DNA from: Deltaproteobacteria bacterium
GTDB taxonomy: Bacteria > Desulfobacterota > Desulfuromonadia > Geobacterales > Pseudopelobacteraceae
NCBI GenBank assembly: GCA_021780495.1
Contig: JAJXYO010000062.1
Coordinates: 86,302-118,301, forward strand
Direction of reading: 5' to 3'
DNA: 32,000 nt
The notes under the pieces are model-generated. The model saw only the letters and a list, made by a program, of their open reading frames with translations, ran no database searches and was not told where the DNA came from. The translations under genes and the position numbers were made by a program. Below, piece after piece: positions 1,360 through 16,860 of this stretch. The first letter of the stretch is position 1. The number at the start of each line of letters is the position of its first letter.

Positions 1360-2030
1360 GCGATACCTTTCTTAATCTTCAGGATTGAAAGCTGACGTAG
1401 AATTTCTGGTATTCCATGTGTTGATTCCACGATCGACCGGGCCTCAATGAGGCTACAGAAAGCATTGCCTTCCTGTTTGCCATCAATAACGAAATACAGG
1501 GCTTCATCTTCCACTATGTTGCCTACGAGCATCCGGCCTGTTTCACCGGCAACAATCATCTCGACCGACATATCAAAAAACTCTGCAAACGAGCCATCCA
1601 GCGCCGTCGCATATAAAAGAGGACCAATCAAACCGAAGTGGATGGCCGCTTCACCCAGCGCACTCGAAGGGAGCGTATAGATGAACAGGTTTGCCCGTGA
1701 AAGCGTGCGACCGTTTTCTACATAATCCTTGAAATAGTCAATGTCCGATTTCAGGGAGCCTTCACGGCTTGTACCGATAATCCCGATGTCCTGCTTGCAT
1801 GCAGATGAGTACTCCACGCCGGCATCCTGCAGGGCAAGGGCAACAGCACTGACAGTCTTCCGCGACATTCCGTCAAGTCGCCCGAAATTCTTGAACGGCT
1901 GCGAAAATATTCCCAATTTCGCAAGAGAGTGAATCCCCTCCCCCTGGGCAAACTGATGTTGCAGCCCGAGCCTGACAGACCCGTAACCTGTGCTTGTCAC
2001 CCACCCTATGCCACGTACTGAAATCATCAT
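1356..2030 (-). CDS. Half-size ketosynthase-like protein lacking the active-site Cys (chain-length-factor / ApeC-like KS partner)
   Basis: The ORF track gives 1356..2084. I prefer the ATG at 2030 (MMISVRGIGWV...), which lies 10 nt after the upstream KS stop and gives a KS-like N-terminus. The protein is about 224 aa. The position where a KS carries its catalytic Cys reads YTLPSSALGEAA. There is no His-His C-terminal half. Confidence 0.7.
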   Translation of the reverse strand: MMISVRGIGWVTSTGYGSVRLGLQHQFAQGEGIHSLAKLGIFSQPFKNFGRLDGMSRKTVSAVALALQDAGVEYSSACKQDIGIIGTSREGSLKSDIDYFKDYVENGRTLSRANLFIYTLPSSALGEAAIHFGLIGPLLYATALDGSFAEFFDMSVEMIVAGETGRMLVGNIVEDEALYFVIDGKQEGNAFCSLIEARSIVESTHGIPEILRQLSILKIKKGIA

Positions 2031-2040
2031 CGAAGCTTTC

Positions 2041-3162: not shown

Positions 3163-3644
3163 GGGCAACAAAGGAATTCTCCGGCTTTCCACCTGCTGCG
3201 GCAGCGATCAAGCATCACCGGCGAGAGCATGCAGGGTTCTCCTGTTCGGTGATCCGTAAAAAGCTGAATGGTGTAGCCGCTTGTTGCCAGGCTGCCATCC
3301 TGTTTGTAAACGTGGAATTCGGTGTTTATCCGCGCGCCCTCGTGCCAGACCATGGAAGCCCGGATGGTGAATTCCTCCGCCAGAAAGAGAGACTGAAAAT
3401 AATCTATATGGAGTGAGATGATGGGGGCTCTCAAACCGGCTTCAAGATACTCATTATATGACATCCCGCAGCGTCGGCCGAGTTCTTCAGACGCCTCCTC
3501 GAACAGGAGCGGATAGCGGCCATGCCACATGATAGCCATAGGATCGGCCTCATTGAAGCGAACGCGACGTTTGACCTCGACGAAGATCGGTTCCGGCGCT
3601 CCGGGAACCGGATCAAAGTACGTTTTTTTCCGCTTGATCTTCAT
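3159..3644 (-). CDS. Hotdog-fold acyl-CoA/acyl-ACP thioesterase (4HBT/YbgC-like, ApeK-like)
   Basis: 161-aa ORF. YbgC-type N-terminal signature VRFNEADPMAIMWHGRYPLLFEEA. ATGA overlap with the upstream gene at 3641-3644. Confidence 0.8.
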   Translation of the reverse strand: MKIKRKKTYFDPVPGAPEPIFVEVKRRVRFNEADPMAIMWHGRYPLLFEEASEELGRRCGMSYNEYLEAGLRAPIISLHIDYFQSLFLAEEFTIRASMVWHEGARINTEFHVYKQDGSLATSGYTIQLFTDHRTGEPCMLSPVMLDRCRSRWKAGEFLCCP

Positions 3645-4021
3645 ATCGCATCACCCAGGGCAACACGCAGTTTCAGATCAGACACCTTTTCTTCTCCCTT
3701 AGTAACACGAACCTTACAGGTAAATTCATTGCCGGCATCCGCAACGCTACTCACGGTACAAATCAGGTGATCTCCAGGCAAAACGGGCGCTACGTACTTG
3801 GCCAGTACTATTTCTTTTAGAAAAACGCGCTGCTGCAGACCTTGCCTGAGTGTTGAAATTGCACACTGAATCTGGCATGCCCCCGGCAGAACCATCTTAG
3901 TCGGGAAATGTCCCTGAAAACCGATAAACTCGGGCGGAAAGGTGAAACTCGATGTCATAACAGAGTCAGTCCGCGTTGGTCCATCCATGTAGCGCTCAAT
4001 ATCCGCTTGTACCTTGCTCAT
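3641..4021 (-). CDS. FabZ/FabA-like 3-hydroxyacyl-ACP dehydratase (hotdog, ApeP-like)
   Basis: 126 aa. Catalytic-His motif FQGHFPTKMVLPGACQIQ. ATGA overlap at 4018-4021. Confidence 0.8.
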   Translation of the reverse strand: MSKVQADIERYMDGPTRTDSVMTSSFTFPPEFIGFQGHFPTKMVLPGACQIQCAISTLRQGLQQRVFLKEIVLAKYVAPVLPGDHLICTVSSVADAGNEFTCKVRVTKGEEKVSDLKLRVALGDAI

Positions 4022-4683
4022 GAATACAACTCCTTTTGCCGGACCGTCAGTTGGTAACCATACTTGTAATTAATCATGATAATCCCTTGAGGATAATGTT
4101 TCCCATTCTGCTCACGATATTCATAGTAGGATACCCGCCACACGATTTCATTGTTCTCATAATAAACCTTCTCGACAAGATCCCGCCCTTTCCCGGCAAA
4201 TTCATATTCCATTTCACCGGAACCGTACGGTTGCCAAAAATTTACCTTGTATTTACTCTTCCAGGTACGTGCTCTGTCTGACGGGATCAGATCAAAATAG
4301 ATTCTGCGGATGTCGGTGCCAACCGCTTTCGGAAGGTCACCGTACTGCATGAGGGCGGGCAGTGCATTCTGGGTAACAATGGTATCCCTGTCGCCAGACA
4401 GTTCAAACAACTGGACACCCAATGGGTTAAGACAGACCACTTTAAATTGATTATTCTGACGGTTTATGTCGATGTAGCCGATCCCCATAAAGGATTTCCA
4501 GGAATACTCAAATACGACAGAATTGAGGACTTGGAAGCGTTCCGGGGTGTGAGCTTTAAATTGCGCCACGACACTTTTGGGCTCGACAGATTCAAAGGAT
4601 ACACGTTCAGCTTTCTGAAACGGAATGTGGGTACACCCGGCAGACAATATAATCAGCATCAACAGGGCAACAAATTTGATCAT
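4018..4683 (-). CDS. Lipoprotein of unknown function (LolB-/DUF3261-like position in Ape-type clusters)
   Basis: 221 aa. Signal peptide with lipobox MIKFVALLMLIILSAGC. The ATG directly abuts the MMPL stop (TAG|ATG, 4681-4686). The family assignment rests on cluster position only. Confidence 0.75.
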   Translation of the reverse strand: MIKFVALLMLIILSAGCTHIPFQKAERVSFESVEPKSVVAQFKAHTPERFQVLNSVVFEYSWKSFMGIGYIDINRQNNQFKVVCLNPLGVQLFELSGDRDTIVTQNALPALMQYGDLPKAVGTDIRRIYFDLIPSDRARTWKSKYKVNFWQPYGSGEMEYEFAGKGRDLVEKVYYENNEIVWRVSYYEYREQNGKHYPQGIIMINYKYGYQLTVRQKELYS

Positions 4684-7101
4684 CTATCGGTTTTCCTCTG
4701 TATCAATCAGACTGCACAGAGGTGGAACCACCAATATGGCAGAGAGATATCCGGTAATTATGCAGATAAACATGGCGACTCCGGTAGAGTGGAGTGCGGG
4801 ATGCTTTGCAAACAGAAGCGCACCGGTGCCGATGACATTGGTTATTGCCGAAATAGTCACGGCGATGATGGTCCCGGTACGCAATCTGTGGCGGTATTGA
4901 TAGGTGATCCCCAAGCCATAATCCACGATAACTCCGGTCGAGACGATGGAAGCCACAATATTTATGACGTTCAAGGGAATCTTCAGAAATGACATAATCC
5001 CGACAAACCAGACAATTCCGGTGACCAGCGGTACCAGGGCAATCAGGGTATACTTCCAATCGCCAAAAAACAGCCACGCCAGCACCACATTAAATAGAAA
5101 CGCAAGCGGCGCCAGAATTCTGATCTCCTTGGCTGTAAATGAGGAGATCGAGGCAGACATGGCCTTTCCCGATACGACGAATGTGCCGGGATACTTTTTC
5201 GTGATTTCTGTCAATGAATCAATATAGTTCTGTTCATCCGGAAAGTACGAAAGAATACGGTATTCTCCGTTTTTGCTCAACACAAATCTTTCCTGCAGTT
5301 GAGCTATAAGGCCGTTGGAACCGGCGTTTTCTGCTTGATGACGATAGAGGCCATCGAAAAATGGAGAAAAAGCGCTATCAGAAAATTGATACGCCGCAGA
5401 CGTTTCGCGAATCAGCTTTTTAAGCTCAAGCTCTTTTCCTTGTCTCCAAAAACTGTCCCAATGTGCACTGTTTTCCTTCCGCAGCCGTTCAGAAGGCCAA
5501 AACTGCGCAAGGCTCGTAAATTCACCTTTTTCAACAAGGTTATGTGCAGCATGAAACACAGCGTCGTTAACTTCCATGGCATCTTCGAGGCTTTTTCCCG
5601 TTACCACGAAAATTGCCTGACTGGTTTTGCCACCCCACACATTGTGAAACCTCTGTTCGGCGCGCAGAACTCCCGGATCGCTACCGTCAAGTTTTTTGAC
5701 ATCGCTGTCAAATGTGACAGATAAAGCGCTATACAATGCCAGACAAAACAGCACACCCCATACGCCGATGCAGGTCTTGACCGGCCAGCGAATCGTCGTG
5801 AGCTTGTCATCGATACTGGAGTCTGTTACAGGAATGACCTTCATGTGTGAAAGGACGATGGGAAGAACAAAGAGAGCTATCATCAGACAGATGAACACGC
5901 AGAGGGCAGAGAAAAGTGCGAGCTGGTGATACCCCTGAATTTTCGAAAAAAACAAGACCAGAAAACTGAACATGGTAGTTGTAGCGCTGACCGTAATCAA
6001 TCGTGATAGTTTCACAAACTGCGTGCTATCGACTCCGCGCTTCAATGCAATAAACATGTGCAAGCCATAGTCAACCGAAAAGCCTGCGATTGCAGTACCG
6101 AGTCCGATTACCATATACAGCAGTTTCCCTTCAATGGCTGAGGCCAGTACAATTGACCATACGATAGCAATAAAGGGGATAATAAAGATAAAAAGCACGC
6201 GAAGGTCACGAAATACCATCAGGAACAGCAAAAGAAATGTCACGGAAGCTATGGTAGAAACTATTGATATGTCACGTTTGATCACGCGCTCATTACTGAC
6301 CGTATGCAGATGACCACAGATAATATCGGCCGACACGTATCCCGGCAGCTCTTTAATATGGCCCTGCAGCGCAGCAATGAGTTCTTTGCTGCGTGGGCTA
6401 TCCATCATTGCAACGGAAGTTTGCAGTATCATCAAGGCATGACGACCGTCACGACTGATAAAATGCCCATCCTCAATAGCAACGTCGTATCCCATGGACG
6501 CGGGGAGTGCCCGCATCTTTTCAAGGAGTAGCATCTTGATTCCCAGTGGATCGGCACGGGACAACGACGAAGTGAATACACTTTCCGGGCGCATGGACTG
6601 CAGATAGATACCCCGCATTTTCTGGGATACCGTTTTGCTATTGATAAGACCGTTTATGGCTTCCAGATCCTGCCTTCCAAGCACCTGCGGCGCGTAGTGG
6701 AGAACTGAGAATTCATCCATGACATTCGCAACGGAAAAGCCGGAAACCACCTTCATAAAAAGCGGCGGGGTGAGGGATGCGGATAACTGATCTACGGCGA
6801 GGAAGAGGTCTTTTTTAGTTTTGGCAGGGTCTGTCAATGCAATGGAAACTATAACCTTATCCGAAAAGCTGGAGCCCCTCAGAAAATCCATGCTCCGGGC
6901 AATTTCCTTGTCCGGCGGCAACATCAGGTCGATATTGCCCTCGAAGTGCGTAAAAAACAGGGCTGAGCCAGCAAGCGCCGTGATCAGCAGAACAAACGCT
7001 AAAACCAGTTTTGTATGCTTGCGTACGATCGTCTGAAACAGCAAGAAAACTTTTTCAAACACGCCCTTTAACCTCAAATTGTTTACTGGTAAGTGGCGCA
7101 T
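4684..7101 (-). CDS. MMPL/RND-superfamily membrane exporter (ApeM-like)
   Basis: 805 aa. Two blocks of about 5-6 hydrophobic helices are separated by large soluble loops, as in MMPL/RND transporters. The ATG at 7101 overlaps the upstream gene by 47 nt. An alternative GTG at 7062 would give an 8-nt overlap. Confidence 0.85.
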   Translation of the reverse strand: MRHLPVNNLRLKGVFEKVFLLFQTIVRKHTKLVLAFVLLITALAGSALFFTHFEGNIDLMLPPDKEIARSMDFLRGSSFSDKVIVSIALTDPAKTKKDLFLAVDQLSASLTPPLFMKVVSGFSVANVMDEFSVLHYAPQVLGRQDLEAINGLINSKTVSQKMRGIYLQSMRPESVFTSSLSRADPLGIKMLLLEKMRALPASMGYDVAIEDGHFISRDGRHALMILQTSVAMMDSPRSKELIAALQGHIKELPGYVSADIICGHLHTVSNERVIKRDISIVSTIASVTFLLLFLMVFRDLRVLFIFIIPFIAIVWSIVLASAIEGKLLYMVIGLGTAIAGFSVDYGLHMFIALKRGVDSTQFVKLSRLITVSATTTMFSFLVLFFSKIQGYHQLALFSALCVFICLMIALFVLPIVLSHMKVIPVTDSSIDDKLTTIRWPVKTCIGVWGVLFCLALYSALSVTFDSDVKKLDGSDPGVLRAEQRFHNVWGGKTSQAIFVVTGKSLEDAMEVNDAVFHAAHNLVEKGEFTSLAQFWPSERLRKENSAHWDSFWRQGKELELKKLIRETSAAYQFSDSAFSPFFDGLYRHQAENAGSNGLIAQLQERFVLSKNGEYRILSYFPDEQNYIDSLTEITKKYPGTFVVSGKAMSASISSFTAKEIRILAPLAFLFNVVLAWLFFGDWKYTLIALVPLVTGIVWFVGIMSFLKIPLNVINIVASIVSTGVIVDYGLGITYQYRHRLRTGTIIAVTISAITNVIGTGALLFAKHPALHSTGVAMFICIITGYLSAILVVPPLCSLIDTEENR

Positions 7102-7738
7102 TCAGGATCGTATGTAGAAAATTGATGGTAGTAACATCTCCACTGATCTCTTGGATACGCAACTGCTGCAGATAATTTTGATCATTGCGAAACGTGATGG
7201 TTATACTTTTAATGACTTTTTTTGACACGTTATTGTCCCGTGGAACGAATTCGATCACAAGAGGATTTCGTTTTTTAATCCGAACATCATTGCTATCGAG
7301 AAGCGAGCCATACTCGCCGGAAAACCAGACCGTCATTTGACCAAGAACATTTTGAAAAATAGGATTCTTGGCCAGGGATATTTCCTGTACTTTATTGGTA
7401 TCCTCGTCCCATTGACGAATCAATTTGTCTGTTATCAGTACCGAGTAACGAACAGGAGAATCAACGTGCCATGCAATCTTGTTCGGCTTTTCAAGATAGA
7501 TCCTTCCCTTCATAACGAGCTTTTTCTTGAACATGACCATCTTTTTTTCTTGTATAAACTCTGTCTTGAGTGTTTTGAAACTGGAGGCCTTTTTTCCGAT
7601 GTCGTGCAAGAAAGCTGACAAATCGGCCGGCTGCGCCACGCCGCCAGTTCCGGTTTCAGCTGCATCAATTCGGCCTGTCTGCAGCATGACGATTATGATC
7701 ATCGATATTGCCGCGATACATCTTGTCAAGACTCTCAT
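7055..7738 (-). CDS. LolA-like outer-membrane lipoprotein/lipid carrier protein (ApeL-like), secreted
   Basis: 227 aa. Signal peptide MRVLTRCIAAISMIIIVMLQTGRIDAAE. LolA-like pattern FIQEKK...MKGRIYLEKPNKIAWHVDSP...ITDKLIRQWDEDTNKV. TAATG junction with the upstream gene (7736-7740). Confidence 0.75.
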   Translation of the reverse strand: MRVLTRCIAAISMIIIVMLQTGRIDAAETGTGGVAQPADLSAFLHDIGKKASSFKTLKTEFIQEKKMVMFKKKLVMKGRIYLEKPNKIAWHVDSPVRYSVLITDKLIRQWDEDTNKVQEISLAKNPIFQNVLGQMTVWFSGEYGSLLDSNDVRIKKRNPLVIEFVPRDNNVSKKVIKSITITFRNDQNYLQQLRIQEISGDVTTINFLHTILNAPLTSKQFEVKGRV

Positions 7739-9225
7739 TATGCCACCCCTGTTGTGTCACTTTGCCATACCTTGATTTCACCACGCGCAATCAGCTCTTC
7801 GCCTTTATACACTTCACCGCTCAGGATACCGAAATCTCCAAATTTGGCTTTTTTGTACAATGATATGCGCAGGGTATCGCCCACGTAAGAATCACCAAAA
7901 ATCTCCAGGTTTTTAATCCCCAACAAGAACCCCTCTACCAAGGGGTTACGACCTCCGAACCTTCGAAATCCCTCCTGAGCAGCCACAGCCTGGGAGATGA
8001 TCTCGGGATAGGAAGCATCGTCAAGATGGCCGTTTTCATCTACGAAGATCATGTCAGCCCGTACCGTCATTTCAGAAACCGATGCACGCTCTTTCACTTC
8101 CAGCAGTCGGTCTATGAGGAGCATCGGCGGTTTATGAGGGATAACATGGGCAACATCCACCGGCAAAAACATGATTTCATCCCGCCGGTCGATATTTTTC
8201 CAGCAGAGTGGATCGGAAGCAAGATAATCTCCCGTCAACTGATAAGCGGTGCCACGGCAGCCATAACACGTTTCAAGTGATGCACATTCTCCACAAGGGC
8301 CTTTTATCGTTTCCCTGTAGTTTTTGAGATCCTGCACCACCTCACTGTCACGCAGGATCTCTTTCAGGCTCTGTTGCCTCAGGTTGCCGAGCGGTATCGT
8401 AATTCCGACGCATGATTGCACAAAGCCCTCAGAATTTACTGCGCAGGAATATTGATGCCGCAGACACTCTCCCCCAACCAAAGGCGGTTTCGGATCCCAG
8501 TGAATATCGTACTTGATCTTGTCAATTTCTGATATTTCCTGAAAGAACACCTCAAGAGTCCGTGAATCCAGCTCTAGCATGTTGTGCTCGCGGGCCCCCC
8601 CTTGCGGCGTCATAATTTCGAAATAGGGAAGGATGTTCTGATCCCGCAGCCATTGCCACAAGCGCGGCAACTCATGAATATTCTGCTGACAGATGATTGA
8701 ACTTACGCCCAATGGATTTTCCAGTGAGGGGTAACCAGCCAGCTTCAGATTCTTCAGGGCTTCCTGGATCTGGATATATGATCCCTTGCGACCGGATAAC
8801 GTGTCTTGGAGACTCTCATCAAAGGTGTTCATTTTGAGTACAGCCCGGACCCCATTATCAAACAATTCCTGCGCTACCGCTGGTGTGATATTGGTTCCGT
8901 TAGTGAACAGCTCTATCTCCATATCCAACGATTTGATGTGGCCGATCATCTCCATAATATGGGGATAAAGCATCGGCTCGCCGCCGAGAATAATTATTTT
9001 CCGCGCTCCCAGTTCCCTGGCCTGATTAATGACACCTATAAACTCATCCTGAGTCAGTTCTTCAGGTCGTTTGGCACGGTCCAACGCATAACAATACAGG
9101 CACTTGAAATTGCAGCTCTGGTTGAACTCGATCTCCATCGACAACAGTCGTCCGTCCCGAACAGCATCGCTGATTTCCTGTGCAGTAAACTCTGATCCAT
9201 AAATCCTATCTATACAGGGCTTCAT
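7738..9225 (-). CDS. Fusion protein: radical SAM/SPASM domain joined to a C-terminal FabA/ApeI-like hotdog dehydratase domain
   Basis: 495-aa uninterrupted ORF. The rSAM motif is CNFKCLYC (residues 38-45). The SPASM-type Cys pattern is SCAVNSEGFVQSC ... CGECASLETCYGC ... DPLC (residues about 261-341). The hotdog region runs from about residue 352, with HVIPHKPPMLLIDRLLEV and LLGIKNLEIFG. Confidence 0.85.
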   Translation of the reverse strand: MKPCIDRIYGSEFTAQEISDAVRDGRLLSMEIEFNQSCNFKCLYCYALDRAKRPEELTQDEFIGVINQARELGARKIIILGGEPMLYPHIMEMIGHIKSLDMEIELFTNGTNITPAVAQELFDNGVRAVLKMNTFDESLQDTLSGRKGSYIQIQEALKNLKLAGYPSLENPLGVSSIICQQNIHELPRLWQWLRDQNILPYFEIMTPQGGAREHNMLELDSRTLEVFFQEISEIDKIKYDIHWDPKPPLVGGECLRHQYSCAVNSEGFVQSCVGITIPLGNLRQQSLKEILRDSEVVQDLKNYRETIKGPCGECASLETCYGCRGTAYQLTGDYLASDPLCWKNIDRRDEIMFLPVDVAHVIPHKPPMLLIDRLLEVKERASVSEMTVRADMIFVDENGHLDDASYPEIISQAVAAQEGFRRFGGRNPLVEGFLLGIKNLEIFGDSYVGDTLRISLYKKAKFGDFGILSGEVYKGEELIARGEIKVWQSDTTGVA

Positions 9226-10526
9226 AGGCTCTTTCTCTCGTCCACAAAACGGGTTAATTTCCGGGGATTTCCTGCATACACCTTACTCTTGACATGCTCA
9301 TCACTTGTGATGACAACTTCAGGCCGCACGCGCAGGCGGGCTTGTAATTTATCCATGATCATCTCTGCGGAACAGGCTTCGCTACCGGCTGCAACAAAAA
9401 TCTTAACTACATCGGAAAGGTCATAATCCGTCGTTGCCATCACATAATACTCCTTGACTTCAGGAAGGATGTCGAGAACGGCGTTGATCGAGTTTGGGTA
9501 GAGTGTCGTACCCTTGAACTTGATCATCTGATTTTTTCTTCCAAGGATCGGGCCGAGGCGCAGGGAATTCCGGCCACATGGGCACGGCTCATCAATCAGA
9601 AAGCTCACGTCACCCGTCTTGAAGCGAACAAGCGGCATCCCTTCAATACCCATCGGCGTCACAACAACTTCGCCGGTTTCGCCAATCGGAGCCACAGCTC
9701 CATGGTCATCGACTATCTCCACAATCGCCAGATCGGGATGCAGATGCCCGCCCTGTTGTGCAGTGCATTCACAGAAGGATGTGATGGTTTCAGACGATGC
9801 ATAGGTCGAATAAATCCTTGCGCCCCACAGATGTTCCAATTTTTCTCCGACCTTCAGAAAGGCAAGCTGCCGGTCGCGGATCGGCTCACCAATGCAGACC
9901 AGTTTTTTAACTCCGCTCAAGGCGGGATCGAAACCTTCTGATGAAAGAAACTGTCCGAGCTTCAGTAAAAACGTCGGGACACCGACAATCACGGTCGGTT
10001 TCAATCGCCTGATAATCTCCAGGTGACTTTCGACGCTGCTGAGCCCGTTTCTGATTGCCGAGGCTCCCAGATTCCTGACCCCCGAGAAATACGCCAATCC
10101 AGCGATAAAACACCGGTCGATCGTGCAGGTCAACAAAACGATATCATCAGGGCACAGACCACAGCTCGCAAATGAAATTTCCTCGTTGTACGCCAGACGC
10201 CGCAGATCATGTTCGGTATACATGACCTTGGTAGACCTGCCCGTGGTACCAGATGACAACACGATATCAACAATCTGTGACATGGGTACGGCGAGAAAAT
10301 TGTCGTTTTGTTCACCCAGTACGGTCTTGTCAGTGAAGGGAATCGTGTTCAGAGAATTCATGGTTATACTGGTCACATCTATCCCGTGTTCACGGAACAT
10401 TGTCTGATAAAATGGCGAGTGGGAAGCAACATACGCAAGATGCGTTTTCAGCCTGCTTTCCTGTAGGCTATGGATTTCATCCGAACGGCAATACTCGAGT
10501 TTTCGTTGACCATCACATACTGTCAT
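9222..10526 (-). CDS. Adenylate-forming enzyme, phenylacetate-CoA ligase (PaaK)/F390-synthetase-like (candidate starter-unit activating enzyme)
   Basis: 434 aa. AMP-binding P-loop SSGTTGRSTKV, then YASSET, FKTGDV, and GRKNQMIKFKGTTLYP, which is typical of the PaaK-type family. ATGA overlaps at both ends (9222-9225, 10523-10526). Confidence 0.8.
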   Translation of the reverse strand: MTVCDGQRKLEYCRSDEIHSLQESRLKTHLAYVASHSPFYQTMFREHGIDVTSITMNSLNTIPFTDKTVLGEQNDNFLAVPMSQIVDIVLSSGTTGRSTKVMYTEHDLRRLAYNEEISFASCGLCPDDIVLLTCTIDRCFIAGLAYFSGVRNLGASAIRNGLSSVESHLEIIRRLKPTVIVGVPTFLLKLGQFLSSEGFDPALSGVKKLVCIGEPIRDRQLAFLKVGEKLEHLWGARIYSTYASSETITSFCECTAQQGGHLHPDLAIVEIVDDHGAVAPIGETGEVVVTPMGIEGMPLVRFKTGDVSFLIDEPCPCGRNSLRLGPILGRKNQMIKFKGTTLYPNSINAVLDILPEVKEYYVMATTDYDLSDVVKIFVAAGSEACSAEMIMDKLQARLRVRPEVVITSDEHVKSKVYAGNPRKLTRFVDERKSL

Positions 10527-11278
10527 ATTCTGTTCTCCATACGGGACAGTTCATGGTCTATGATATTCCAGACTCTCTTTTTTAAAGCAAAAGCGGTAAG
10601 ATGCTTATATTCATCCCATGCAATCGCCGGCAATCTGCGAACGGTTATGACTCCTGGACGCAGAAGCGCTGACCCTTTGGGCGGAATATTTTCACTACCC
10701 GTGATACAGAGAGGGACAATCGAAGCCTTTGACGCAAGCGCAAGGCGGAAAGCCGAGCCATGAAAAGTTCCCATCCTGGCGCTTGCCGACCTGGTCCCTT
10801 CAGGGAAAAAAACAATGGAGACCCCAGCCTTCAGCAGATCAGTGGCGCTCTGCGTAAATTCTTCAGGTGGCATCATCCTGATATTCAGGTATCCGGCAAA
10901 TTTTGCATACACACCAAGGACCGGTATCCGAAAAGGCCATACATTTACAATCTGTACCAATTCATGAGGAAGAATACCCATGAGAAAAGCGTCAGAAGCC
11001 GAGCGGTGATTGCAGACAAAGATGTATGGTTCCCCGGAGCCGTTGGTTTCACGATTTTCGTAACGAAGCTTTATGAATGGATATGGGCAGGCTATTATGA
11101 CCATTCCATACCAGTTAATGGCGCGCCGGAAGCGCTTCATCGTCTGACGCTGAGAAGGGATCAAGAGGCCTAAACTGACAACATACAGCGTGAGAACCGG
11201 AATCACAGTCGCGGAGAGTGCGGCGAATAGTATATAGAGATACAGATTCAGAAAATACAGCTTGAGACGAGCTATCAT
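10523..11278 (-). CDS. Lysophospholipid / 1-acyl-glycerol-3-phosphate-type acyltransferase (PlsC family, ApeD-like)
   Basis: 251 aa. N-terminal TM helices. HX4D catalytic motif NHRSASD and second block FFPEGTRS. Confidence 0.85.
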   Translation of the reverse strand: MIARLKLYFLNLYLYILFAALSATVIPVLTLYVVSLGLLIPSQRQTMKRFRRAINWYGMVIIACPYPFIKLRYENRETNGSGEPYIFVCNHRSASDAFLMGILPHELVQIVNVWPFRIPVLGVYAKFAGYLNIRMMPPEEFTQSATDLLKAGVSIVFFPEGTRSASARMGTFHGSAFRLALASKASIVPLCITGSENIPPKGSALLRPGVITVRRLPAIAWDEYKHLTAFALKKRVWNIIDHELSRMENRI

Positions 11279-11280
11279 CG

Positions 11281-11547
11281 CTATACGTTCTTTGTGCCTT
11301 CCTCGTTCTTGATTGAGGAAATGAATTGATAGAGATCCTGAAGCGTTCTAATGTCCCGGACCTTTTCCTCGTTCCTGATCTTTACACCGAAACTGCTTTG
11401 AAGTGCGACAATCAAGTCAACGATATCAAGACTATCGAGACCTAAATCAACGAAAATATTAGCGTCCGGCACCAGACGTTCTTTCTCGATTTCAAATGAC
11501 TCCTCAAAGACTTTGTTCGTCTTTTCAATGATCTCTTGCCCAGTCAT
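11281..11547 (-). CDS. Acyl carrier protein
   Basis: 88 aa, acidic. Phosphopantetheine attachment motif DLGLDSLDIVDL. Its own strong Shine-Dalgarno GGAGGA lies upstream (revcomp of about 11551-11556). Confidence 0.9.
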   Translation of the reverse strand: MTGQEIIEKTNKVFEESFEIEKERLVPDANIFVDLGLDSLDIVDLIVALQSSFGVKIRNEEKVRDIRTLQDLYQFISSIKNEEGTKNV

Positions 11548-11573
11548 GTATCCTCCAGAAAAATAATTCAGAA

Positions 11574-12800
11574 CTATATTTTTTTACATACCAGTGCAGC
11601 GTTGATTCCGCCAAAGGCAAAACCATTTTTCAGCACTGTGTTCACCTGTTTCTTCAACGGATGCATCACGTGCTGAATCCCTTCACAATCCTGACTGACA
11701 TTCTCGAGGTTGAGCGTCGGATAGATCATGCCCGTCTCCATCATTTTGAGGGAGGCAGCCAGTTCAATTGCACCTGCAGCACCGAGTGTGTGCCCAATGT
11801 TCCCTTTCAGACAACTCACCGGAACCAATGCACCAAAAATTTCACGAATCGCTTCGGCCTCTTCCTGGTCTCCCTGGAGAGTAGCCGTGGCATGGGCATT
11901 AATATAATCAATCTCTTCCGGTTTCACTCCGGAATCAGCAAGCGCCTGCCGTATACACATGACCATGGATTCCTTGTTTGACTGGCTGACATGGATACCA
12001 CTTGCAGTTGTACTAAAACCCGTTATCTCGGCATAGATTGTAGCATTTCGCTTGACTGCTCTTTCATATTCCTCCAGGACGAGGATTCCGCTTCCTTCGC
12101 CGCACACCAACCCATCCCTGTCCCTGTCGAATGGACGAGGGGTTTTCCCGGGATTGTCGTTGAATTTGGTGGATGTTGCAAAAAGAATGTCAAATGAGCC
12201 CGTCACGGTTGGGTGCAGCTCTTCGGCGCCTCCGCAGAGGAGGATGTCCTGACGTCCCAACCGGATCAGATCATAACCAATACCAATGGCATGCAACGCC
12301 GATGCGCAGGCAGCTGAAGCGGCCATGATCGTCCCGGTAAGTCCCAAGTACTGGGCAACATTAACCGTAGCGGTATGCGACATGCATTGAAAGAACATGG
12401 TGGAATTCAGTTTACTCAAATCCTTGTCGGGAAGCATTGTTTCAAAGACATCATTGATGCTCTTGGCACTTCCCATAGTCGAACCGACTACACAGCCGAC
12501 CCGCCATAGATCTTCATCAGCAAGCATAATGCCGGCATCGGCCAGTGCTTCGTCAGCAGCCTGGGCGGCGAAGATACTCATGCGTCCCATGGAACGTCTC
12601 TTCTGACGCGGGATGCTCATTTCACCTTGCATTGTTACAGGCGCGCCGACCAGACTCTGCAGGCCGTTGTACTGATCCCACCCTTCCATGAAGCGGACAG
12701 CGCTGCGCCCTTCTTCGATTCCTTTCATCAGTGCCGGGACGCCGTTACCAAAGGGGGAAACGACACCAATTCCAGTAATCACAACTCGTTTTAATGACAT
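11574..12800 (-). CDS. Beta-ketoacyl-ACP synthase II-like (FabF family; ApeR-like)
   Basis: 408 aa. Cys motif AASAACASALHA and His motifs NAHATAT and GHTLGAAG. The start overlaps the upstream stop by 10 nt (ATGTCATTAA, 12791-12800). Confidence 0.9.
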   Translation of the reverse strand: MSLKRVVITGIGVVSPFGNGVPALMKGIEEGRSAVRFMEGWDQYNGLQSLVGAPVTMQGEMSIPRQKRRSMGRMSIFAAQAADEALADAGIMLADEDLWRVGCVVGSTMGSAKSINDVFETMLPDKDLSKLNSTMFFQCMSHTATVNVAQYLGLTGTIMAASAACASALHAIGIGYDLIRLGRQDILLCGGAEELHPTVTGSFDILFATSTKFNDNPGKTPRPFDRDRDGLVCGEGSGILVLEEYERAVKRNATIYAEITGFSTTASGIHVSQSNKESMVMCIRQALADSGVKPEEIDYINAHATATLQGDQEEAEAIREIFGALVPVSCLKGNIGHTLGAAGAIELAASLKMMETGMIYPTLNLENVSQDCEGIQHVMHPLKKQVNTVLKNGFAFGGINAALVCKKI

Positions 12801-14293: not shown

Positions 14294-14343
14294 TCTGGAC
14301 AACCAACTCCTCAAAAACACATCGTATCGGATTTTCAATCACG

Positions 14344-15063: not shown

Positions 15064-15149
15064 AATCATGCCTATCCAAATACATTTTCCCAGCTAGTCC
15101 GCCACAGTGAGTCACAACCTCTAACGGCAAGTAACATATTAATTTATGG

Positions 15150-15178
15150 ACATTACACTAACGATTTTTGACTGTCAA
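15150..15178 (-). promoter_or_regulatory. Candidate sigma70-type promoter of the 15-gene lipid operon
   Basis: The minus strand reads TTGACA (15178-15173), a 17-nt spacer, then TAATGT (15155-15150), about 85-90 nt upstream of the fabG-like start. The -35 element is half of the palindrome TTGACTGTCAA (15168-15178). Confidence 0.4.
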
Positions 15179-15229: not shown

Positions 15230-15261
15230 ATTGATTAATAGTGCCGGGTCCCGCAAGGAAT

Positions 15262-16860
15262 ATGGATAGACTAAGAATATTTTTGCATGATATGTTGACG
15301 GCTCAAATTAAATGGAAAGAATTGCCTTGGCGAGCACCCAAAGGACAATCCTGCGACATCTATAGACCAACGCCACAAAATATCATTCTCCGAGGCACGG
15401 CTCAATTGAACCAATCAAAGAAAATACTTTTCGTCCACCCGCTCGGTGAAAACTGGATACCAGGCGAACAAAATGTTGCCCGTGTCGTAAACATCATGGC
15501 ACCGCTGGGTCTCCTCTCACTGGCTGCCTGGTTGGATACCTACGGGCATCAGACGAAAATTCACGACTGTTATGCGTTTCCGGGAGATGATGATAAGATT
15601 TACTCCTATCTGAGGGAAGAACGCCCGGATTTCATAGGGTTTTCCACAACAACCTCCAGTTTCCTTGATGGTATCCGTCTGGCAACCAAGGCTAAGGAAA
15701 TTCTGCCCTCGGTACAGGTTGTGTTTGGCGGCGTCCATATTTCGGCGGTGCGCGATCAGCTTCTGGGAGACTTTCCTGTCATCGATTTTGGGGTTGTCGG
15801 TGAAGGTGAAGAGGTTTTACGGGAACTGATTGAATCGAACGGAGTAGGCTTGCGCAACATTGCAGGACTCATCTTTCGCGAGCAGGACAATGTTGTCTTT
15901 AACGGCTTTCGAAAAGAACTGATCGATATGGACACACTCCCCTTTCCTGCGTATGAAAAATTGCAGGATTTTCCCGGCAGTTACTGTCTCCCTATTTTCA
16001 GTTATCCCAAGGCACCTAACACCACTGTCATCACAAGCAGAGGCTGCCCCTATACCTGTTCCTATTGTGATCGCTCAGTCTTCCAGCGAACGTATCGCTA
16101 CAATTCACCTGAGTATATGATGAAGTATCTTACCTATCTCCAGCAACGCTTCAATATTAAGCATGTGAATATCTACGACGACACCTTCACTCTGCATCGA
16201 CAGCGGGTAATGGAATTCTGTGAACTCAAGATACGGTCCGGTTTGAAGATGACCTTTAATTGCGCTGCCCGTACCGAGCAACTCGATGGCAGCATGCTCG
16301 AGGCGCTGAAAAAGGCCGGCTGCTGGATGATCAGTATCGGCATCGAAACGGGTGATCCTGACCTGCTGAAAAAGCATCGCTCCTATATATCAAACAAAGA
16401 AATGGACAATCCGCTGGAAAATATCCGCAAGACTGTCCATCTGATCAAGAAATCAGGCATCCGTGTCAAGGGCCTGTTCATGCTGGGGCTACCCGGTGAA
16501 ACCGAGAGAAGTATTGAAACAAGTATGGCGTATGTATTCAGCCTCCCATTAGATGAGTTCAATCTGTCGAAACTGACCCCCTTCCCCGGGGCACCCATGT
16601 ACGGTGATATCCACAACCATGGCACATTCGACGAGAACTGGGGCATAATGAATGCGGCTAATTTCACCTTCATTCCGACGGGGTTTACCAAAGAACTGCT
16701 GGAAGAAAGACACCTCGAATTTTATCGCCGATATTTCTCAAGACCGAAGGTATTGCTGAACTATGCAACCATGATATGGAAATCACCCGACAGCTGGCGG
16801 CGTTTTTGGAAGGATTTGCCGACGTTTCTGAGTTTTACGAGAAAAAACAGAAAAAAGTGA
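15262..16860 (+). CDS. B12-binding-domain radical SAM enzyme (class B rSAM), divergent from the lipid operon
   Basis: The ORF track starts at GTG 15241. I prefer the ATG at 15262, which is preceded by AAGGAA. The B12-binding-like region is KILFVHP...DFIGFSTTTSS...VVFGGVHIS. The rSAM motif is SRGCPYTCSYCD. Confidence 0.85.
   Translation: MDRLRIFLHDMLTAQIKWKELPWRAPKGQSCDIYRPTPQNIILRGTAQLNQSKKILFVHPLGENWIPGEQNVARVVNIMAPLGLLSLAAWLDTYGHQTKIHDCYAFPGDDDKIYSYLREERPDFIGFSTTTSSFLDGIRLATKAKEILPSVQVVFGGVHISAVRDQLLGDFPVIDFGVVGEGEEVLRELIESNGVGLRNIAGLIFREQDNVVFNGFRKELIDMDTLPFPAYEKLQDFPGSYCLPIFSYPKAPNTTVITSRGCPYTCSYCDRSVFQRTYRYNSPEYMMKYLTYLQQRFNIKHVNIYDDTFTLHRQRVMEFCELKIRSGLKMTFNCAARTEQLDGSMLEALKKAGCWMISIGIETGDPDLLKKHRSYISNKEMDNPLENIRKTVHLIKKSGIRVKGLFMLGLPGETERSIETSMAYVFSLPLDEFNLSKLTPFPGAPMYGDIHNHGTFDENWGIMNAANFTFIPTGFTKELLEERHLEFYRRYFSRPKVLLNYATMIWKSPDSWRRFWKDLPTFLSFTRKNRKK

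What the first reader, a model, noticed from the sequence alone, without database searches (positions are those of the whole stretch)
7738..9225. Single polypeptide fusing a radical SAM/SPASM domain to an ApeI/FabA-like hotdog dehydratase
Seen in the sequence: one uninterrupted 495-aa ORF.
- Residues about 30-345 carry CNFKCLYC (CX3CX2C) and a SPASM-type auxiliary-cluster Cys pattern (C-x10-C, then CGEC-x5-C-x2-C, then a final C).
- Residues about 352-495 look like a hotdog fold beginning HVIPHKPPMLLIDRLLEV, the N-terminal signature I associate with the dehydratases of polyene clusters.

Established knowledge: SPASM/twitch rSAMs mostly act on peptides, proteins or cofactors. ApeI-type dehydratases work as a heterocomplex with an ApeP-type partner, and a candidate partner sits at 3641-4021.

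Inference: the hotdog domain may dock the ACP-tethered hydroxyacyl or enoyl intermediate so that the rSAM domain acts on a carrier-bound lipid. That would place radical chemistry inside the elongation cycle. I know of no characterised enzyme with this architecture.
Basis: partly seen in the sequence, partly recalled or inferred. Interest (0 to 1): 0.8.

Follow-up and report, generated by a model that had tools for sequence, protein, structure and literature searches.

The report
Radical SAM enzyme fused to dehydratase subunit
This gene from an anaerobic Geobacter relative joins a radical-chemistry enzyme to one half of the two-part dehydratase that builds polyene pigment lipids; the fusion is real, is conserved in anaerobes of several bacterial phyla, has never been characterised, and suggests that radical chemistry is wired directly into the chain-building cycle.

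Summary
Window 7738-9225 (-) is one 495-aa ORF with CX3CX2C, a full eight-Cys SPASM domain and a C-terminal hotdog domain. It is not a frameshift artefact: more than 120 protein clusters (at least 68% identical) and 73 of 80 genome loci carry the same architecture.

The hotdog domain is ApeP-type, not ApeI/FabA-type. Its best solved relative is chain B of the ApeI:ApeP heterocomplex 6QSR. Conservation points to one composite active site: His38 of the ApeI-like protein and Glu408 of the fused domain.

The gene sits in a conserved 15-gene aryl-polyene/flexirubin-like type II PKS operon that also carries a B12-radical SAM and a phytoene-desaturase-like gene. Clusters of this kind were noted in 2009 as "ladderane-like" and remain uncharacterised.

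What the radical SAM domain does is not shown. The best guess is a radical step on the ACP-bound chain right after dehydration, as with Jaw5.

Caveats:
- Desulfobulbus has unfused orthologues.
- Many distant fused relatives have lost CX3CX2C.
- The hotdog domain also fuses to other operon neighbours.

Verdict: a new variant of a known kind, moderately high interest.

The parts
7738..9225 (-). Fused gene: radical SAM / SPASM / ApeP-like hotdog, 495 aa. Identical to NCBI MDA8430426.1, Geobacteraceae MAG.
8491..9144 (-). Radical SAM core, residues ~28-245. CX3CX2C at C38/C42/C45 (nt 9091-9114) and the GGE SAM-binding motif at 81-83 (nt 8977-8985).
   Evidence: Pfam PF04055 80.4 bits. Motifs invariant in 27 homologues. 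Codons checked.
8191..8466 (-). SPASM domain, residues ~254-345, with eight invariant Cys (254, 261, 272, 311, 314, 320, 323, 341). Predicted to hold two auxiliary [4Fe-4S] clusters.
   Evidence: PF13186 30.2 bits. Invariance. Foldseek matches to SuiB, PqqE, CteB and anSME. The assignment of Cys to clusters is inference.
7756..8163 (-). ApeP-like hotdog domain, residues ~355-490. Glu408 (nt 8002-8004) and Gln412 (nt 7990-7992) are the putative catalytic pair. The linker from the SPASM end is 8 residues or fewer.
   Evidence: 6qsr_B: phmmer E 1.5e-6; Foldseek TM 0.80, rmsd 2.5 A. E408/Q412 invariant in 47 sequences down to 29% identity.
3641..4021 (-). Stand-alone ApeI-like hotdog protein, 126 aa, the predicted heterodimer partner. 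His38 lies in the GHFP motif (nt 3908-3910).
   Evidence: PF22818 28.4 bits against cutoff 28.5. Best PDB hit 6qsr_A, E 3.9e-4. His38 invariant in 54 of 54 loci; the Glu-equivalent position is Gln in 48 of 54.
11281..11547 (-). Acyl carrier protein, 88 aa, GLDSLD motif.
   Evidence: PF00550; sequence
9222..10526 (-). Aryl/acyl AMP-ligase (ApeH/FlxY-like), immediately upstream and translationally coupled.
   Evidence: NCBIfam FlxY_rubin 467.7 bits, cutoff 520. Pfam AMP-binding.
10523..11278 (-). Lysophospholipid-type acyltransferase (ApeD-like).
   Evidence: PF01553
11574..15069 (-). Ketosynthase (11574-12800), phytoene-desaturase-like FAD enzyme (12791-14338) and SDR ketoreductase (14344-15069).
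   Evidence: NCBIfam
4018..7738 (-). Export/localisation set: LolA-like (7055-7738), MMPL/RND transporter (4684-7101), DUF3261/LolB-like (4018-4683). These correspond to ApeL/M/N.
   Evidence: E. coli APE gene table in PMC8253772
88..3644 (-). 4HBT thioesterase (3159-3644), ketosynthase (2041-3192), short CLF-like protein (1356-2084) and B12-binding radical SAM with CX3CX2C (88-1359).
15241..16860 (+). Divergently transcribed second B12-binding radical SAM. It is conserved next to the operon in only a few loci, so membership is uncertain.

Best explanation
The gene encodes a bifunctional subunit of an aryl-polyene/flexirubin-like type II polyketide synthase of a strictly anaerobic Geobacteraceae bacterium.

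Step 1, well supported. The C-terminal ApeP-type hotdog domain pairs with the stand-alone ApeI-like protein (3641-4021) to form a heterodimeric 3-hydroxyacyl-ACP dehydratase. It has one composite active site: His38 from the ApeI-like protein and Glu408 from the fused domain. No other dehydratase-type hotdog gene was found in the operon.

Step 2, supported by sequence. The N-terminal domain is an intact AdoMet radical enzyme. It has the SAM-cleaving [4Fe-4S] cluster and two SPASM auxiliary clusters that are predicted, from eight invariant Cys, to be fully Cys-ligated. That arrangement is typical of enzymes that pass an electron from a substrate radical to an acceptor.

Step 3, inferred. The radical domain abuts the dehydratase subunit with almost no linker. 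It therefore most likely works on the same ACP-tethered chain, taking the enoyl or polyenoyl thioester directly after dehydration. It would abstract an H atom, then oxidise the radical (an extra desaturation) or form a C-C bond. The logic is that of Jaw5 in jawsamycin biosynthesis, but with a SPASM-type enzyme physically fused to the dehydratase.

Step 4, inferred by analogy. The finished chain is presumably released by the thioesterase or acyltransferase onto a lipid anchor and moved to the outer membrane by the LolA/MMPL/DUF3261 set.
For: Fusion is real and conserved:
- More than 120 clusters at 68% identity or higher.
- 73 of 80 genome loci in Geobacterales, Nitrospirota/Thermodesulfovibrionia, Planctomycetia, Omnitrophota, Verrucomicrobiota, Kiritimatiellae, Lentisphaerae and Pseudodesulfovibrio.
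- The cultured Pelobacter propionicus DSM 2379 carries it as Ppro_0911.

ApeP and ApeI assignment:
- Fused domain to 6qsr_B at E 1.5e-6, TM 0.80, rmsd 2.5 A.
- Neighbour gene to 6qsr_A at E 3.9e-4, and PF22818.
- ApeI/ApeP are described as a heterodimer with a single active site (PMC8041823).

Composite active site:
- E408 and Q412 are invariant down to 29% identity.
- The fused domain's own His-equivalent, residue 400, varies.
- ApeI-like His38 is invariant in 54 of 54 loci and its Glu-equivalent is Gln in 48 of 54.

Rosetta-stone support: natural ApeP-ApeI double-hotdog proteins exist (P0197; 14 of the 150 best representatives).

Operon context:
- A 15-gene order is conserved across phyla.
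- The genes match E. coli ApeC, D, E, H, I, K, L, M, N, O, P, Q and R functions.
- The ligase is FlxY-like at 467.7 bits.
- There is no enoyl reductase, which fits a polyene product.

Intact radical SAM features:
- CX3CX2C, GGE and eight SPASM Cys are invariant.
- The high-confidence single-chain model (pTM 0.88) implies a fixed domain arrangement.

Other support:
- The unfused orthologue in Desulfobulbus also sits beside ACP, KS and acyltransferase genes.
- Jaw5 acts stepwise directly after dehydration (PMC13459092).
Against: - No experiment or structure shows the substrate of the radical SAM domain.
- Orthologues at 53-57% identity are free-standing (352 aa) in Desulfobulbus and Desulfobacteraceae. 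No ApeI, ApeP, LolA or MMPL gene lies within 10 kb of them, so the radical enzyme does not need the hotdog domain.
- Among distant full-length fused representatives, 17 of 26 have no CX3CX2C and, in those inspected, no GGE motif. Some have lost the middle of the barrel, yet they keep SPASM plus hotdog in the same operon slot. The fusion therefore persists without radical SAM chemistry.
- The ApeP-like domain is also found fused to the acyltransferase, to LolA and to ApeI. This fits general scaffolding, or easy fusion of overlapping neighbour genes, as well as it fits substrate channelling.
- Pfam ApeP-like is below its gathering score for this protein (14.2 against 27).
- The nearest radical SAM families (AhbD, NirJ, PqqE, SkfB) are all far below their cutoffs, so the chemistry cannot be read from homology.
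Confidence: 0.5

Rival explanations
1. Scaffold-only fusion. The radical SAM domain is an active enzyme of the same pathway, but it acts at another stage: on the starter unit, on the released polyene acid, or on the lipid-linked product. It is fused to ApeP only because the dehydratase subunit is a hub of a multi-enzyme complex, or because adjacent overlapping genes fuse easily.
For: - The ApeP-like domain is fused in other lineages to the acyltransferase (P0136, P0174, P0176, P0200, P0247, P0253), to LolA (P0154), to ApeI (P0197 and others), and in a triple fusion (P0134).
- ApeI is fused to the ligase ApeH in A. baumannii (PMC8041823).
- Genes in this operon overlap by 1-4 nt.
- Free-standing orthologues at 55% identity work without a hotdog domain in Desulfobulbus.
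Against: - The junction is nearly linker-free, and the single-chain model is confident as a whole (pTM 0.88).
- The fusion is kept over very large phylogenetic distances.
- The unfused orthologue still sits with ACP, KS and acyltransferase genes, so an ACP-bound substrate remains the simplest reading.
Confidence: 0.28
2. The N-terminal domain is mainly a structural or redox (Fe-S) partner of the dehydratase. Radical SAM catalysis is dispensable or vestigial. The conserved functional unit is SPASM plus hotdog.
For: - 17 of 26 distant full-length fused representatives lack CX3CX2C. Those inspected also lack GGE, yet most keep the SPASM Cys and all keep E408/Q412.
- 'Mini' forms join residues ~1-110 directly to ~250-490 (P0131, P0133, P0139, P0141, P0178, P0225).
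- These variants occupy the same operon slot.
Against: In the window's own clade every radical SAM motif is invariant across 27 sequences at 67-89% identity. More distant canonical members (P0123, P0166, P0190, P0193, P0208) also keep them. That indicates purifying selection on catalysis here.
Confidence: 0.1
3. The hotdog domain is a non-catalytic acyl- or ACP-recognition module that only presents the substrate to the radical SAM domain, as RRE domains do in peptide maturases. Dehydration is done elsewhere.
For: - The fused domain lacks a conserved His of its own.
- Its Pfam and FabZ scores are below cutoffs.
Against: - Glu408/Gln412 are invariant and align with the FabZ catalytic Glu motif and with the Glu of X. 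doucetiae ApeP.
- The partner's His38 is invariant while the partner lacks the acid residue. The two proteins are therefore complementary halves.
- No other dehydratase-type hotdog gene was found in the operon.
Confidence: 0.1
4. Artefact: two genes joined by a sequencing or assembly frameshift.
For: None found.
Against: The same uninterrupted ~495-aa protein occurs in more than 120 independent protein clusters and in 73 genome loci from many studies, including a complete isolate genome.
Confidence: 0.01

Closest known systems
ApeI:ApeP dehydratase heterocomplex of the aryl polyene type II PKS (Xenorhabdus doucetiae, PDB 6QSR; E. coli ApeI/ApeP)
   Same: - The fused C-terminal domain is the best sequence and structure match to chain B (ApeP), and the neighbour gene matches chain A (ApeI).
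- His and Glu are split between two different hotdog proteins, giving a single active site.
- The surrounding gene set is the same: KS/CLF, KR, ACP, ligase, thioesterase, acyltransferase, LolA/RND/DUF3261.
   Different: - Here ApeP carries a 345-residue radical SAM/SPASM enzyme at its N-terminus.
- Identity to 6qsr_B is only ~24%, and the Pfam ApeP-like score is under the cutoff.
- The operon adds a B12-radical SAM and a phytoene-desaturase-like gene. It lacks the SAM methyltransferase ApeB, the glycosyltransferase ApeJ and a second ACP.
- The hosts are strict anaerobes.
ApeH-ApeI fusion of Acinetobacter baumannii
   Same: It sets a precedent for fusing one dehydratase subunit of the APE pathway to another ACP-dependent enzyme of the same pathway (PMC8041823).
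   Different: There the other subunit (ApeI) is fused, and the partner is an adenylating ligase, not a radical enzyme.
'Ladderane-like' FASII clusters of anammox bacteria and Deltaproteobacteria (Rattray 2009; K. stuttgartiensis kuste3335-3352 and kuste3603-3608)
   Same: - They combine ACP, KS plus an inactive KS, FabG, FabZ-type dehydratase, phytoene-desaturase-like enzyme, phenylacetyl-CoA-ligase-like enzyme, a membrane protein and several radical SAM enzymes.
- Geobacter and Pelobacter are named as carriers (PMC2649909).
- In Kuenenia the ligase gene kuste3344 has the locus tag next after the SAM-radical genes kuste3342/3343 (PMC4790861).
- The products and the radical SAM functions are unknown there too.
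   Different: - No radical SAM-hotdog fusion is described there, and the FabZ is a separate homodimeric type.
- The window's B12-radical SAMs do not reach the NCBIfam ladderane-type model (47.8 and 95.9 bits against 360).
- Orthology of the SPASM domain to a Kuenenia gene could not be tested.
Jaw5 / C10P radical SAM cyclopropanases of jawsamycin-type iterative PKS
   Same: A radical SAM enzyme modifies a growing carrier-bound chain stepwise, directly after the dehydration step (PMC13459092). This is the same logic proposed here.
   Different: - Jaw5 is a HemN-like (class C, two-SAM) enzyme, free-standing, and works with a type I iterative PKS.
- The window enzyme is SPASM-type, covalently fused to a type II dehydratase subunit, and its chemistry is unknown.
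SPASM/twitch radical SAM enzymes with solved structures (SkfB, SuiB, PqqE, CteB, anSME, BlsE)
   Same: They share the fold and the Cys pattern of the N-terminal 345 residues.
   Different: - Sequence similarity is low (best E 3e-14).
- All of these act on peptides, proteins or small molecules, often with an N-terminal peptide-recognition domain.
- None has a hotdog domain.

Membership tests
Radical SAM superfamily (PF04055) | CX3CX2C motif binding the SAM-cleaving [4Fe-4S] cluster | tested here: met
   C38-x3-C42-x2-C45; invariant in 27 homologues
Radical SAM superfamily (PF04055) | Profile score above the Pfam gathering cutoff, and a partial TIM-barrel fold | tested here: met
   80.4 bits against 29.5. 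The model matches SkfB, SuiB, MoaA and viperin.
Radical SAM superfamily (PF04055) | Reductive cleavage of SAM to the 5'-deoxyadenosyl radical | not testable with these tools
   Needs anaerobic biochemistry.
SPASM subfamily (PF13186) | C-terminal seven-Cys motif CX9-15GX4C - gap - CX2CX5CX3C - gap - C for two auxiliary clusters | tested here: met
   C261-x5-G267-x4-C272; C311-x2-C314-x5-C320-x2-C323 (x2 rather than x3); C341; plus an upstream C254. All are invariant. PF13186 scores 30.2 against 21.5.
ApeP-type dehydratase subunit (PF22817; 6QSR chain B) | Profile score above the Pfam gathering cutoff | tested here: not met
   14.2 bits against 27. Distant fused relatives score 16-25 bits. The precomputed PF22817.3 hits listed for all homologues use a newer model version.
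ApeP-type dehydratase subunit (PF22817; 6QSR chain B) | Closest solved relative is ApeP rather than ApeI or FabZ, over the full domain, with a hotdog fold | tested here: met
   phmmer to 6qsr_B at E 1.5e-6, query 5-144 of 147; next is FabZ at E 4.5e-3. Foldseek TM 0.80, rmsd 2.5 A.
ApeP-type dehydratase subunit (PF22817; 6QSR chain B) | An ApeI-type partner is encoded in the same cluster and the catalytic residues are complementary | tested here: met
   ApeI-like gene at 3641-4021. His38 is invariant in 54 of 54 loci and its acid position is Gln. E408 is invariant in the fused domain.
ApeP-type dehydratase subunit (PF22817; 6QSR chain B) | Physical heterodimer and dehydratase activity on 3-hydroxyacyl-ACP | not testable with these tools
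   No multimer prediction or assay was available.
FabZ / FabA homodimeric dehydratases | Both the catalytic His (GHFP) and the Glu/Asp in the same chain, with an equivalog score above cutoff | tested here: not met
   NCBIfam FabZ scores 28.2 bits against 113. The His-equivalent, residue 400, is variable.
Aryl polyene / flexirubin-type type II PKS gene cluster | KS + CLF, KR, split DH, ACP, aryl-acid ligase, thioesterase, acyltransferase and LolA/RND/DUF3261 export genes, with no enoyl reductase | tested here: met
   All were found in one co-directional operon at 88-15069. The ligase is FlxY-like at 467.7 bits, just under the 520 cutoff. The comparison table is in PMC8253772.
Aryl polyene / flexirubin-type type II PKS gene cluster | Product is an aryl polyene lipid | not testable with these tools
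   No source for an aryl starter was found in the window. An aromatic ammonia-lyase lies next to a related cluster (L084).
AhbD / NirJ / PqqE and other named SPASM equivalogs (NCBIfam) | Score above the curated equivalog cutoff | tested here: not met
   Best hits: AhbD 129.3 against 500; NirJ2 123.6 against 500; PqqE 103.9 against 381.
Anammox ladderane-cluster B12 radical SAM (TIGR04072), for the operon's B12 enzymes | Score above cutoff 360 | tested here: not met
   47.8 bits (88-1359) and 95.9 bits (15241-16860).

The most novel reading that the evidence does not exclude
The fused protein is a new kind of in-cycle tailoring enzyme. The SPASM radical SAM domain takes the enoyl- or polyenoyl-ACP straight from the ApeI/ApeP-type dehydratase site. 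It then performs an oxygen-independent desaturation or C-C ring closure at each round, or at a chosen round, of chain extension. That would make this widespread anaerobe operon the first tractable model for radical chemistry embedded in a type II FAS/PKS cycle. This is the 'type c' mechanism long proposed, but never demonstrated, for ladderane lipids.
Probability: 0.3. Interest if true: 0.85.

Novelty: new variant of a known kind. Interest (0 to 1): 0.62.

Why it matters
- A 2026 review states that radical SAM modification of fatty-acid or polyketide-type ("ketoacyl") lipids is so far only proposed for ladderanes and shown for Jaw5 (PMC13459092). The function of the radical SAM enzymes in "ladderane-like" clusters has been open since 2009.
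- A covalent link between a radical SAM enzyme and a subunit of the chain-elongation dehydratase is conserved across at least eight bacterial lineages. It is genomic (Rosetta-stone) evidence that these radical enzymes belong to the ACP-centred assembly line.
- The fusion names concrete partners to test: His38 of the ApeI-like protein, Glu408 of the fused domain, and the 88-aa ACP.
- The fused gene also exists in a cultured, fully sequenced organism (Pelobacter propionicus DSM 2379, Ppro_0911), so the question is experimentally approachable. That is not so for anammox bacteria, which have no genetic system (PMC10139942).
- The lineages that kept the fusion but lost CX3CX2C offer natural controls.
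- If the chemistry turns out to be an anaerobic desaturation or cyclisation on a carrier-bound chain, it would be a new enzymatic reaction class for lipid and polyketide biosynthesis.

Tried and rejected
- **Frameshift or assembly artefact:** rejected, because of conservation in independent assemblies.
- **ApeI/FabA-type identity of the fused domain:** rejected in favour of ApeP-type.
- **My first ungapped alignment to E. coli FabZ (from memory):** it put the catalytic Glu on Ala413 and suggested a dead domain. The HMMER alignment to 6qsr_B showed the correct register, with Glu408/Gln412 matching the E-x3-Q motif.
- **His364 in the PHKPP motif as catalytic:** not retained. It aligns outside the FabZ GHFP motif (E. 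coli FabZ sequence from memory) and is Gln in several distant relatives.
- **Function from the nearest radical SAM family:** AhbD, NirJ, PqqE and SkfB similarities are generic and far below cutoffs, so no chemistry could be transferred.
- **Membership of the operon's B12 enzymes in the ladderane-type family TIGR04072:** not met.
- **HemN-like gene at 16905-18278 as part of the cluster:** rejected. It is conserved next to the operon in only one of 80 loci.
- **First structure model:** built on 27 close homologues, it was poor (pLDDT 64.9). Adding 22 distant representatives fixed it.
- **Literature searches:** nothing found for a radical SAM-hotdog fusion, for Geobacter cluster genes (GSU0455-0460), or for the Grammbitter 2019 paper.
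- **Geometry between the two active sites:** could not be examined, because model coordinates are not exposed.


Full report
**1. The observation**

Window 7738-9225 (minus strand) is one uninterrupted 495-aa ORF.
- Its ATG overlaps the stop codon of the upstream AMP-ligase gene (ATGA). Its stop overlaps the start of the downstream LolA-like gene (TAATG). It is therefore an internal, translationally coupled member of an operon.
  - CNFKCLYC at C38/C42/C45.
  - A GGE SAM-binding motif at 81-83.
  - The SPASM pattern C261-x10-C272, C311-GE-C314-x5-C320-x2-C323 and C341, plus an eighth Cys at 254.
- Pfam gives Radical_SAM at 80.4 bits and SPASM at 30.2 bits, both above cutoff. ApeP-like is a weak hit (14.2 bits, cutoff 27) over residues 358-453.

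**2. It is not an artefact**

- A search of 5.8 billion proteins returned more than 120 clusters at 68-100% identity. All are ~495 aa and all carry the same three domains. They come from Geobacteraceae, Desulfuromonadales and Nitrospirota.
- A scan of one genome per GTDB species gave 80 loci.
  - In 73 the match covers residues 1 to ~490. These are from Geobacterales, Nitrospirota/Thermodesulfovibrionia, Planctomycetia, Omnitrophota, Victivallales, Verrucomicrobiia, Kiritimatiellae, Lentisphaerae and Pseudodesulfovibrio.
  - Nearly all of these records are metagenome-assembled genomes.
- The cluster of P0044 (74% identical) contains the protein of the cultured Pelobacter propionicus DSM 2379 (Ppro_0911, WP_011734849.1). 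The window protein itself is NCBI MDA8430426.1, annotated only as "radical SAM protein".

**3. The hotdog domain is ApeP-type and the neighbour is ApeI-type**

- A first AlphaFold2 model from 27 close homologues was poor (pLDDT 64.9). A second, built on 47 sequences down to 29% identity, is confident (pLDDT 89.8, pTM 0.88).
- Residues 373-488 form the strand-strand-long helix-four strand pattern of a hotdog fold.
- Foldseek against the PDB gives 6qsr_B as the best hotdog match. That is the ApeI:P dehydratase heterocomplex of Xenorhabdus doucetiae (E 6.6e-11, TM 0.80, rmsd 2.5 A). FabZ structures follow, including the anammox amxFabZ.
- By sequence alone the domain hits 6qsr_B at E 1.5e-6 over its whole length; the next hit is a FabZ at 4.5e-3.
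- The stand-alone 126-aa protein at 3641-4021 hits the other chain, 6qsr_A, best (E 3.9e-4). It also hits Pfam ApeI-like.

**4. One composite active site**

ApeI/ApeP are described as a heterodimeric dehydratase with a single active site, unlike homodimeric FabZ (PMC8041823).

*The fused domain*
- In the HMMER alignment, PEIISQ of the fused domain lines up with IEMMAQ of X. doucetiae ApeP.
- That segment corresponds to the LEAMAQ motif of FabZ, where the Glu is catalytic (E. coli FabZ numbering from my own knowledge).
- Glu408 and Gln412 are invariant in all 47 fused proteins compared, down to 29% identity.
- The position equivalent to the FabZ catalytic His (residue 400) varies freely.

*The ApeI-like protein*
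- It has the GHFP motif, with His38 invariant in 54 of 54 loci.
- Its Glu-equivalent is Gln in 48 of 54.

*What follows*
- The two proteins are complementary halves.
- Natural ApeP-ApeI double-hotdog proteins exist: P0197, and 14 of the 150 best representatives. This is independent Rosetta-stone support for the pairing.
- No other dehydratase-type hotdog gene was found in the operon. The fused protein is thus probably required for dehydration, not only for docking.

**5. Genomic context**

The gene lies in a co-directional operon, 88-15069. The genes are listed here from 15069 down to 88:

| Gene | Note |
|---|---|
| SDR ketoreductase | |
| Phytoene-desaturase-like FAD enzyme | |
| Ketosynthase | |
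| ACP | |
| Lysophospholipid-type acyltransferase | |
| AMP-ligase | NCBIfam FlxY, flexirubin ligase, 467.7 bits against cutoff 520 |
| **The fusion** | 7738-9225 |
| LolA-like protein | |
| MMPL/RND transporter | |
| DUF3261/LolB-like protein | |
| ApeI-like hotdog protein | |
| 4HBT thioesterase | |
| Ketosynthase | |
| Short CLF-like protein | |
| B12-binding radical SAM | carries its own CX3CX2C |

- Apart from the desaturase-like gene and the two radical SAM enzymes, this is the gene set of the E. coli aryl polyene cluster: ApeC, D, E, H, I, K, L, M, N, O, P, Q and R (PMC8253772).
- There is no enoyl reductase, which fits a polyene product.
- tblastn of all window proteins against the 80 loci shows the same gene order across phyla.
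- Clusters combining FASII-like genes with SAM-radical enzymes, phytoene-dehydrogenase-like genes, a phenylacetyl-CoA-ligase-like gene and a membrane protein were described in 2009. The carriers named were Kuenenia, Desulfotalea, Geobacter and Pelobacter (PMC2649909).
- Such clusters are what genome-mining tools call "ladderane" in non-anammox phyla (PMC9902471).
- I found no mention of the fusion in the held papers I searched or read.

**6. The radical SAM domain**

- All catalytic motifs are invariant in the window's clade.
- Eight conserved SPASM cysteines suggest two fully Cys-ligated auxiliary clusters. As I recall from anSME, that arrangement suits electron transfer from a substrate radical. 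This is inference.
- Homology does not reveal the reaction.
  - The best NCBIfam hits are AhbD (129 bits), NirJ2 (124 bits) and PqqE (104 bits), all far below cutoffs of 380-500.
  - The best PDB hits are SkfB and PqqE, at E about 1e-14 to 1e-13.
- The SPASM domain ends at about residue 344. This is shown by the free-standing 352-aa orthologue in Desulfobulbus rhabdoformis, which stops shortly after DPxCWKN.
- The ApeP homology starts at FLPVD, residues 353-357, which aligns with YLPVD of X. doucetiae ApeP.
- The linker is therefore at most about eight residues. The single-chain pTM of 0.88 suggests a fixed arrangement of the two domains.

**7. What it most likely does**

- *Shown or well supported:* a split dehydratase in which one subunit carries an intact radical SAM/SPASM enzyme, inside an aryl-polyene/flexirubin-like type II PKS of anaerobes.
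- *Inferred:* the radical domain acts on the same ACP-tethered chain, most plausibly on the enoyl or polyenoyl thioester just produced by the dehydratase.
- The one documented case of a radical SAM enzyme acting on a growing polyketide, Jaw5, does so "stepwise, directly after dehydration" (PMC13459092). A stepwise in-cycle mechanism is also one of the three standing proposals for ladderane formation (PMC10139942; PMC13459092).
- The chemistry is a guess: H-abstraction followed by oxidation through the auxiliary clusters (an extra desaturation), or a C-C bond closure.
- I put about 0.8 on the dehydratase pairing and about 0.4 on the ACP-bound, in-cycle substrate.

**8. Evidence that tempers the inference**

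(a) *Unfused orthologues.* Seven loci from Desulfobulbus, Desulfobacteraceae and one MAG labelled Cytophagia carry orthologues at 53-57% identity.
  - In D. rhabdoformis (L073) the gene is a complete free-standing 352-aa ORF, and the protein family is 340-360 aa with PF04055+PF13186 only.
  - Where the flanks are long enough, no ApeI, ApeP, LolA or MMPL gene lies within 10 kb.
  - In L073 the gene lies between two B12-radical SAM genes. An ACP, a KS, an acyltransferase, a KSIII-like gene and a FakA/DegV gene are nearby.
  - The radical enzyme therefore does not need the hotdog domain, although it still keeps company with an ACP system.

(b) *Degenerate relatives.* I searched the hotdog domain alone against 1.84 billion representatives. 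The 150 best hits divide as follows:

| Class | Count |
|---|---|
| Stand-alone hotdog proteins | 89 |
| Full-length fusions | 26 |
| Proteins with a shorter N-terminal extension | 22 |
| ApeP-ApeI double hotdogs | 14 |

  - Only 9 of the 26 full-length fusions keep CX3CX2C.
  - The other 17 have no CX3CX2C. Those I inspected also lack GGE, yet most retain the SPASM cysteines and all keep Glu408/Gln412.
  - They sit in the same operon slot.
  - Some "mini" forms join residues ~1-110 directly to ~250-490.

(c) *Other fusion partners.* The ApeP-like domain is also fused to the acyltransferase, to LolA, or to both neighbours. ApeI is fused to the ligase in Acinetobacter.

Together these observations make "dehydratase subunit as assembly hub" a serious rival to strict substrate channelling. 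They also show that the SPASM-hotdog unit has value even without radical SAM catalysis.

**9. Comparison, novelty and verdict**

- Both halves belong to known superfamilies, and the operon belongs to a known, widespread but uncharacterised cluster type.
- The fused architecture has no characterised member, no dedicated NCBIfam model and no solved structure. It appears in databases only as "radical SAM protein".
- I class it as a new variant of a known kind: an ApeI/ApeP-type split dehydratase whose ApeP subunit carries a SPASM radical SAM enzyme.
- Interest is moderately high (0.62).
  - In favour: the fusion gives a concrete, testable handle on an open question, namely what radical SAM enzymes do in FAS/PKS-like "ladderane-type" clusters, and it is available in a culturable host.
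  - Against: the central mechanistic claim is unproven, the cluster type has been noticed before, and the concept has a precedent in Jaw5.

Noticed in passing
P0122, P0129, P0135, P0138, P0144, P0145, P0149, P0155, P0158, P0160, P0164, P0165, P0177, P0228, P0230; loci L082-L085: These distant full-length relatives of the fusion (29-47% identical) have no CX3CX2C and no GGE motif. They keep most SPASM cysteines and the hotdog Glu/Gln, and they occupy the same operon slot. They look like a 'pseudo-radical-SAM'-SPASM-hotdog lineage.
   Followed up: partly
P0131, P0133, P0139, P0141, P0178, P0225: These are 'mini' fusions of 307-372 aa. Residues ~1-110 of the radical SAM domain join directly to the SPASM plus hotdog part (~250-490), so the middle of the barrel is deleted. 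Two of them still have CX3CX2C.
   Followed up: no
P0136, P0174, P0176, P0200, P0247, P0253 (acyltransferase-hotdog); P0134 (717 aa: acyltransferase-SPASM-hotdog); P0154 (720 aa: radical SAM-SPASM-hotdog-LolA); P0197 and 13 others (ApeP-ApeI double hotdog): The ApeP-like hotdog domain is fused in different lineages to each of its operon neighbours. This suggests it is a hub of a multi-protein complex, or that these overlapping genes fuse easily.
   Followed up: partly
L073 (Desulfobulbus rhabdoformis DSM 8777) 35-13545; also L071, L078, L080: A different lipid-type cluster holds the unfused 352-aa orthologue. Its genes are a B12-radical SAM (64% identical to window 88-1359), an AMP-ligase, a FakA/DegV fusion, a GT2, a LpxL-like acyltransferase, an ACP, a KS, an acyltransferase, a B12-radical SAM, the SPASM radical SAM, another B12-radical SAM and a KSIII-like gene. 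It is probably the Desulfotalea-type cluster of Rattray 2009.
   Followed up: partly
window 88-1359 (-): This B12-binding radical SAM is among the most conserved proteins of the operon, and usually the most conserved (64-95% identity across phyla). It also travels with the SPASM enzyme in the Desulfobulbus cluster. The two radical enzymes may form a conserved functional pair. Its Pfam hits are weak (B12-binding 3e-8, Radical_SAM 1e-7).
   Followed up: partly
window 1356-2084 (-): The CLF-like partner of the ketosynthase is only 242 aa, with a partial N-terminal KS hit. It overlaps the end of the KS gene by 44 nt. A similarly short protein (218 aa, no Pfam hit) follows the KS in L083.
   Followed up: no
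window 18568-19976 (+): A PagL-like lipid A 3-O-deacylase and an alpha/beta hydrolase lie beside the cluster. PagL homologues also flank related clusters in L001, L053, L059 and L060. This hints at outer-membrane lipid remodelling linked to the product.
   Followed up: no
window 16905-18278 (-) and 23815-24963 (+): These are two HemN/HemW-like radical SAM genes. The first (best hit ChuW/HutW, 182 bits against cutoff 400) is adjacent to the cluster but is conserved there in only one other locus (L004), so it is probably unrelated.
   Followed up: partly
L084 1-432: An aromatic amino-acid ammonia-lyase (PF00221) lies next to a related cluster. This fits a coumarate- or cinnamate-type aryl starter, as in flexirubin. 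No such gene is in the window.
   Followed up: no
P0395 (member of the P0044 cluster): The fused protein occurs in a cultured organism with a complete genome: Pelobacter propionicus DSM 2379, Ppro_0911 / WP_011734849.1 / UniProt A1AMH0, 497 aa. That makes it a practical experimental entry point.
   Followed up: no
window 15070-15240: A 171-bp divergent intergenic region lies between the ketoreductase gene, which is first in the operon, and the second B12-radical SAM gene. It is the likely promoter region of the operon. I did not analyse it.
   Followed up: no
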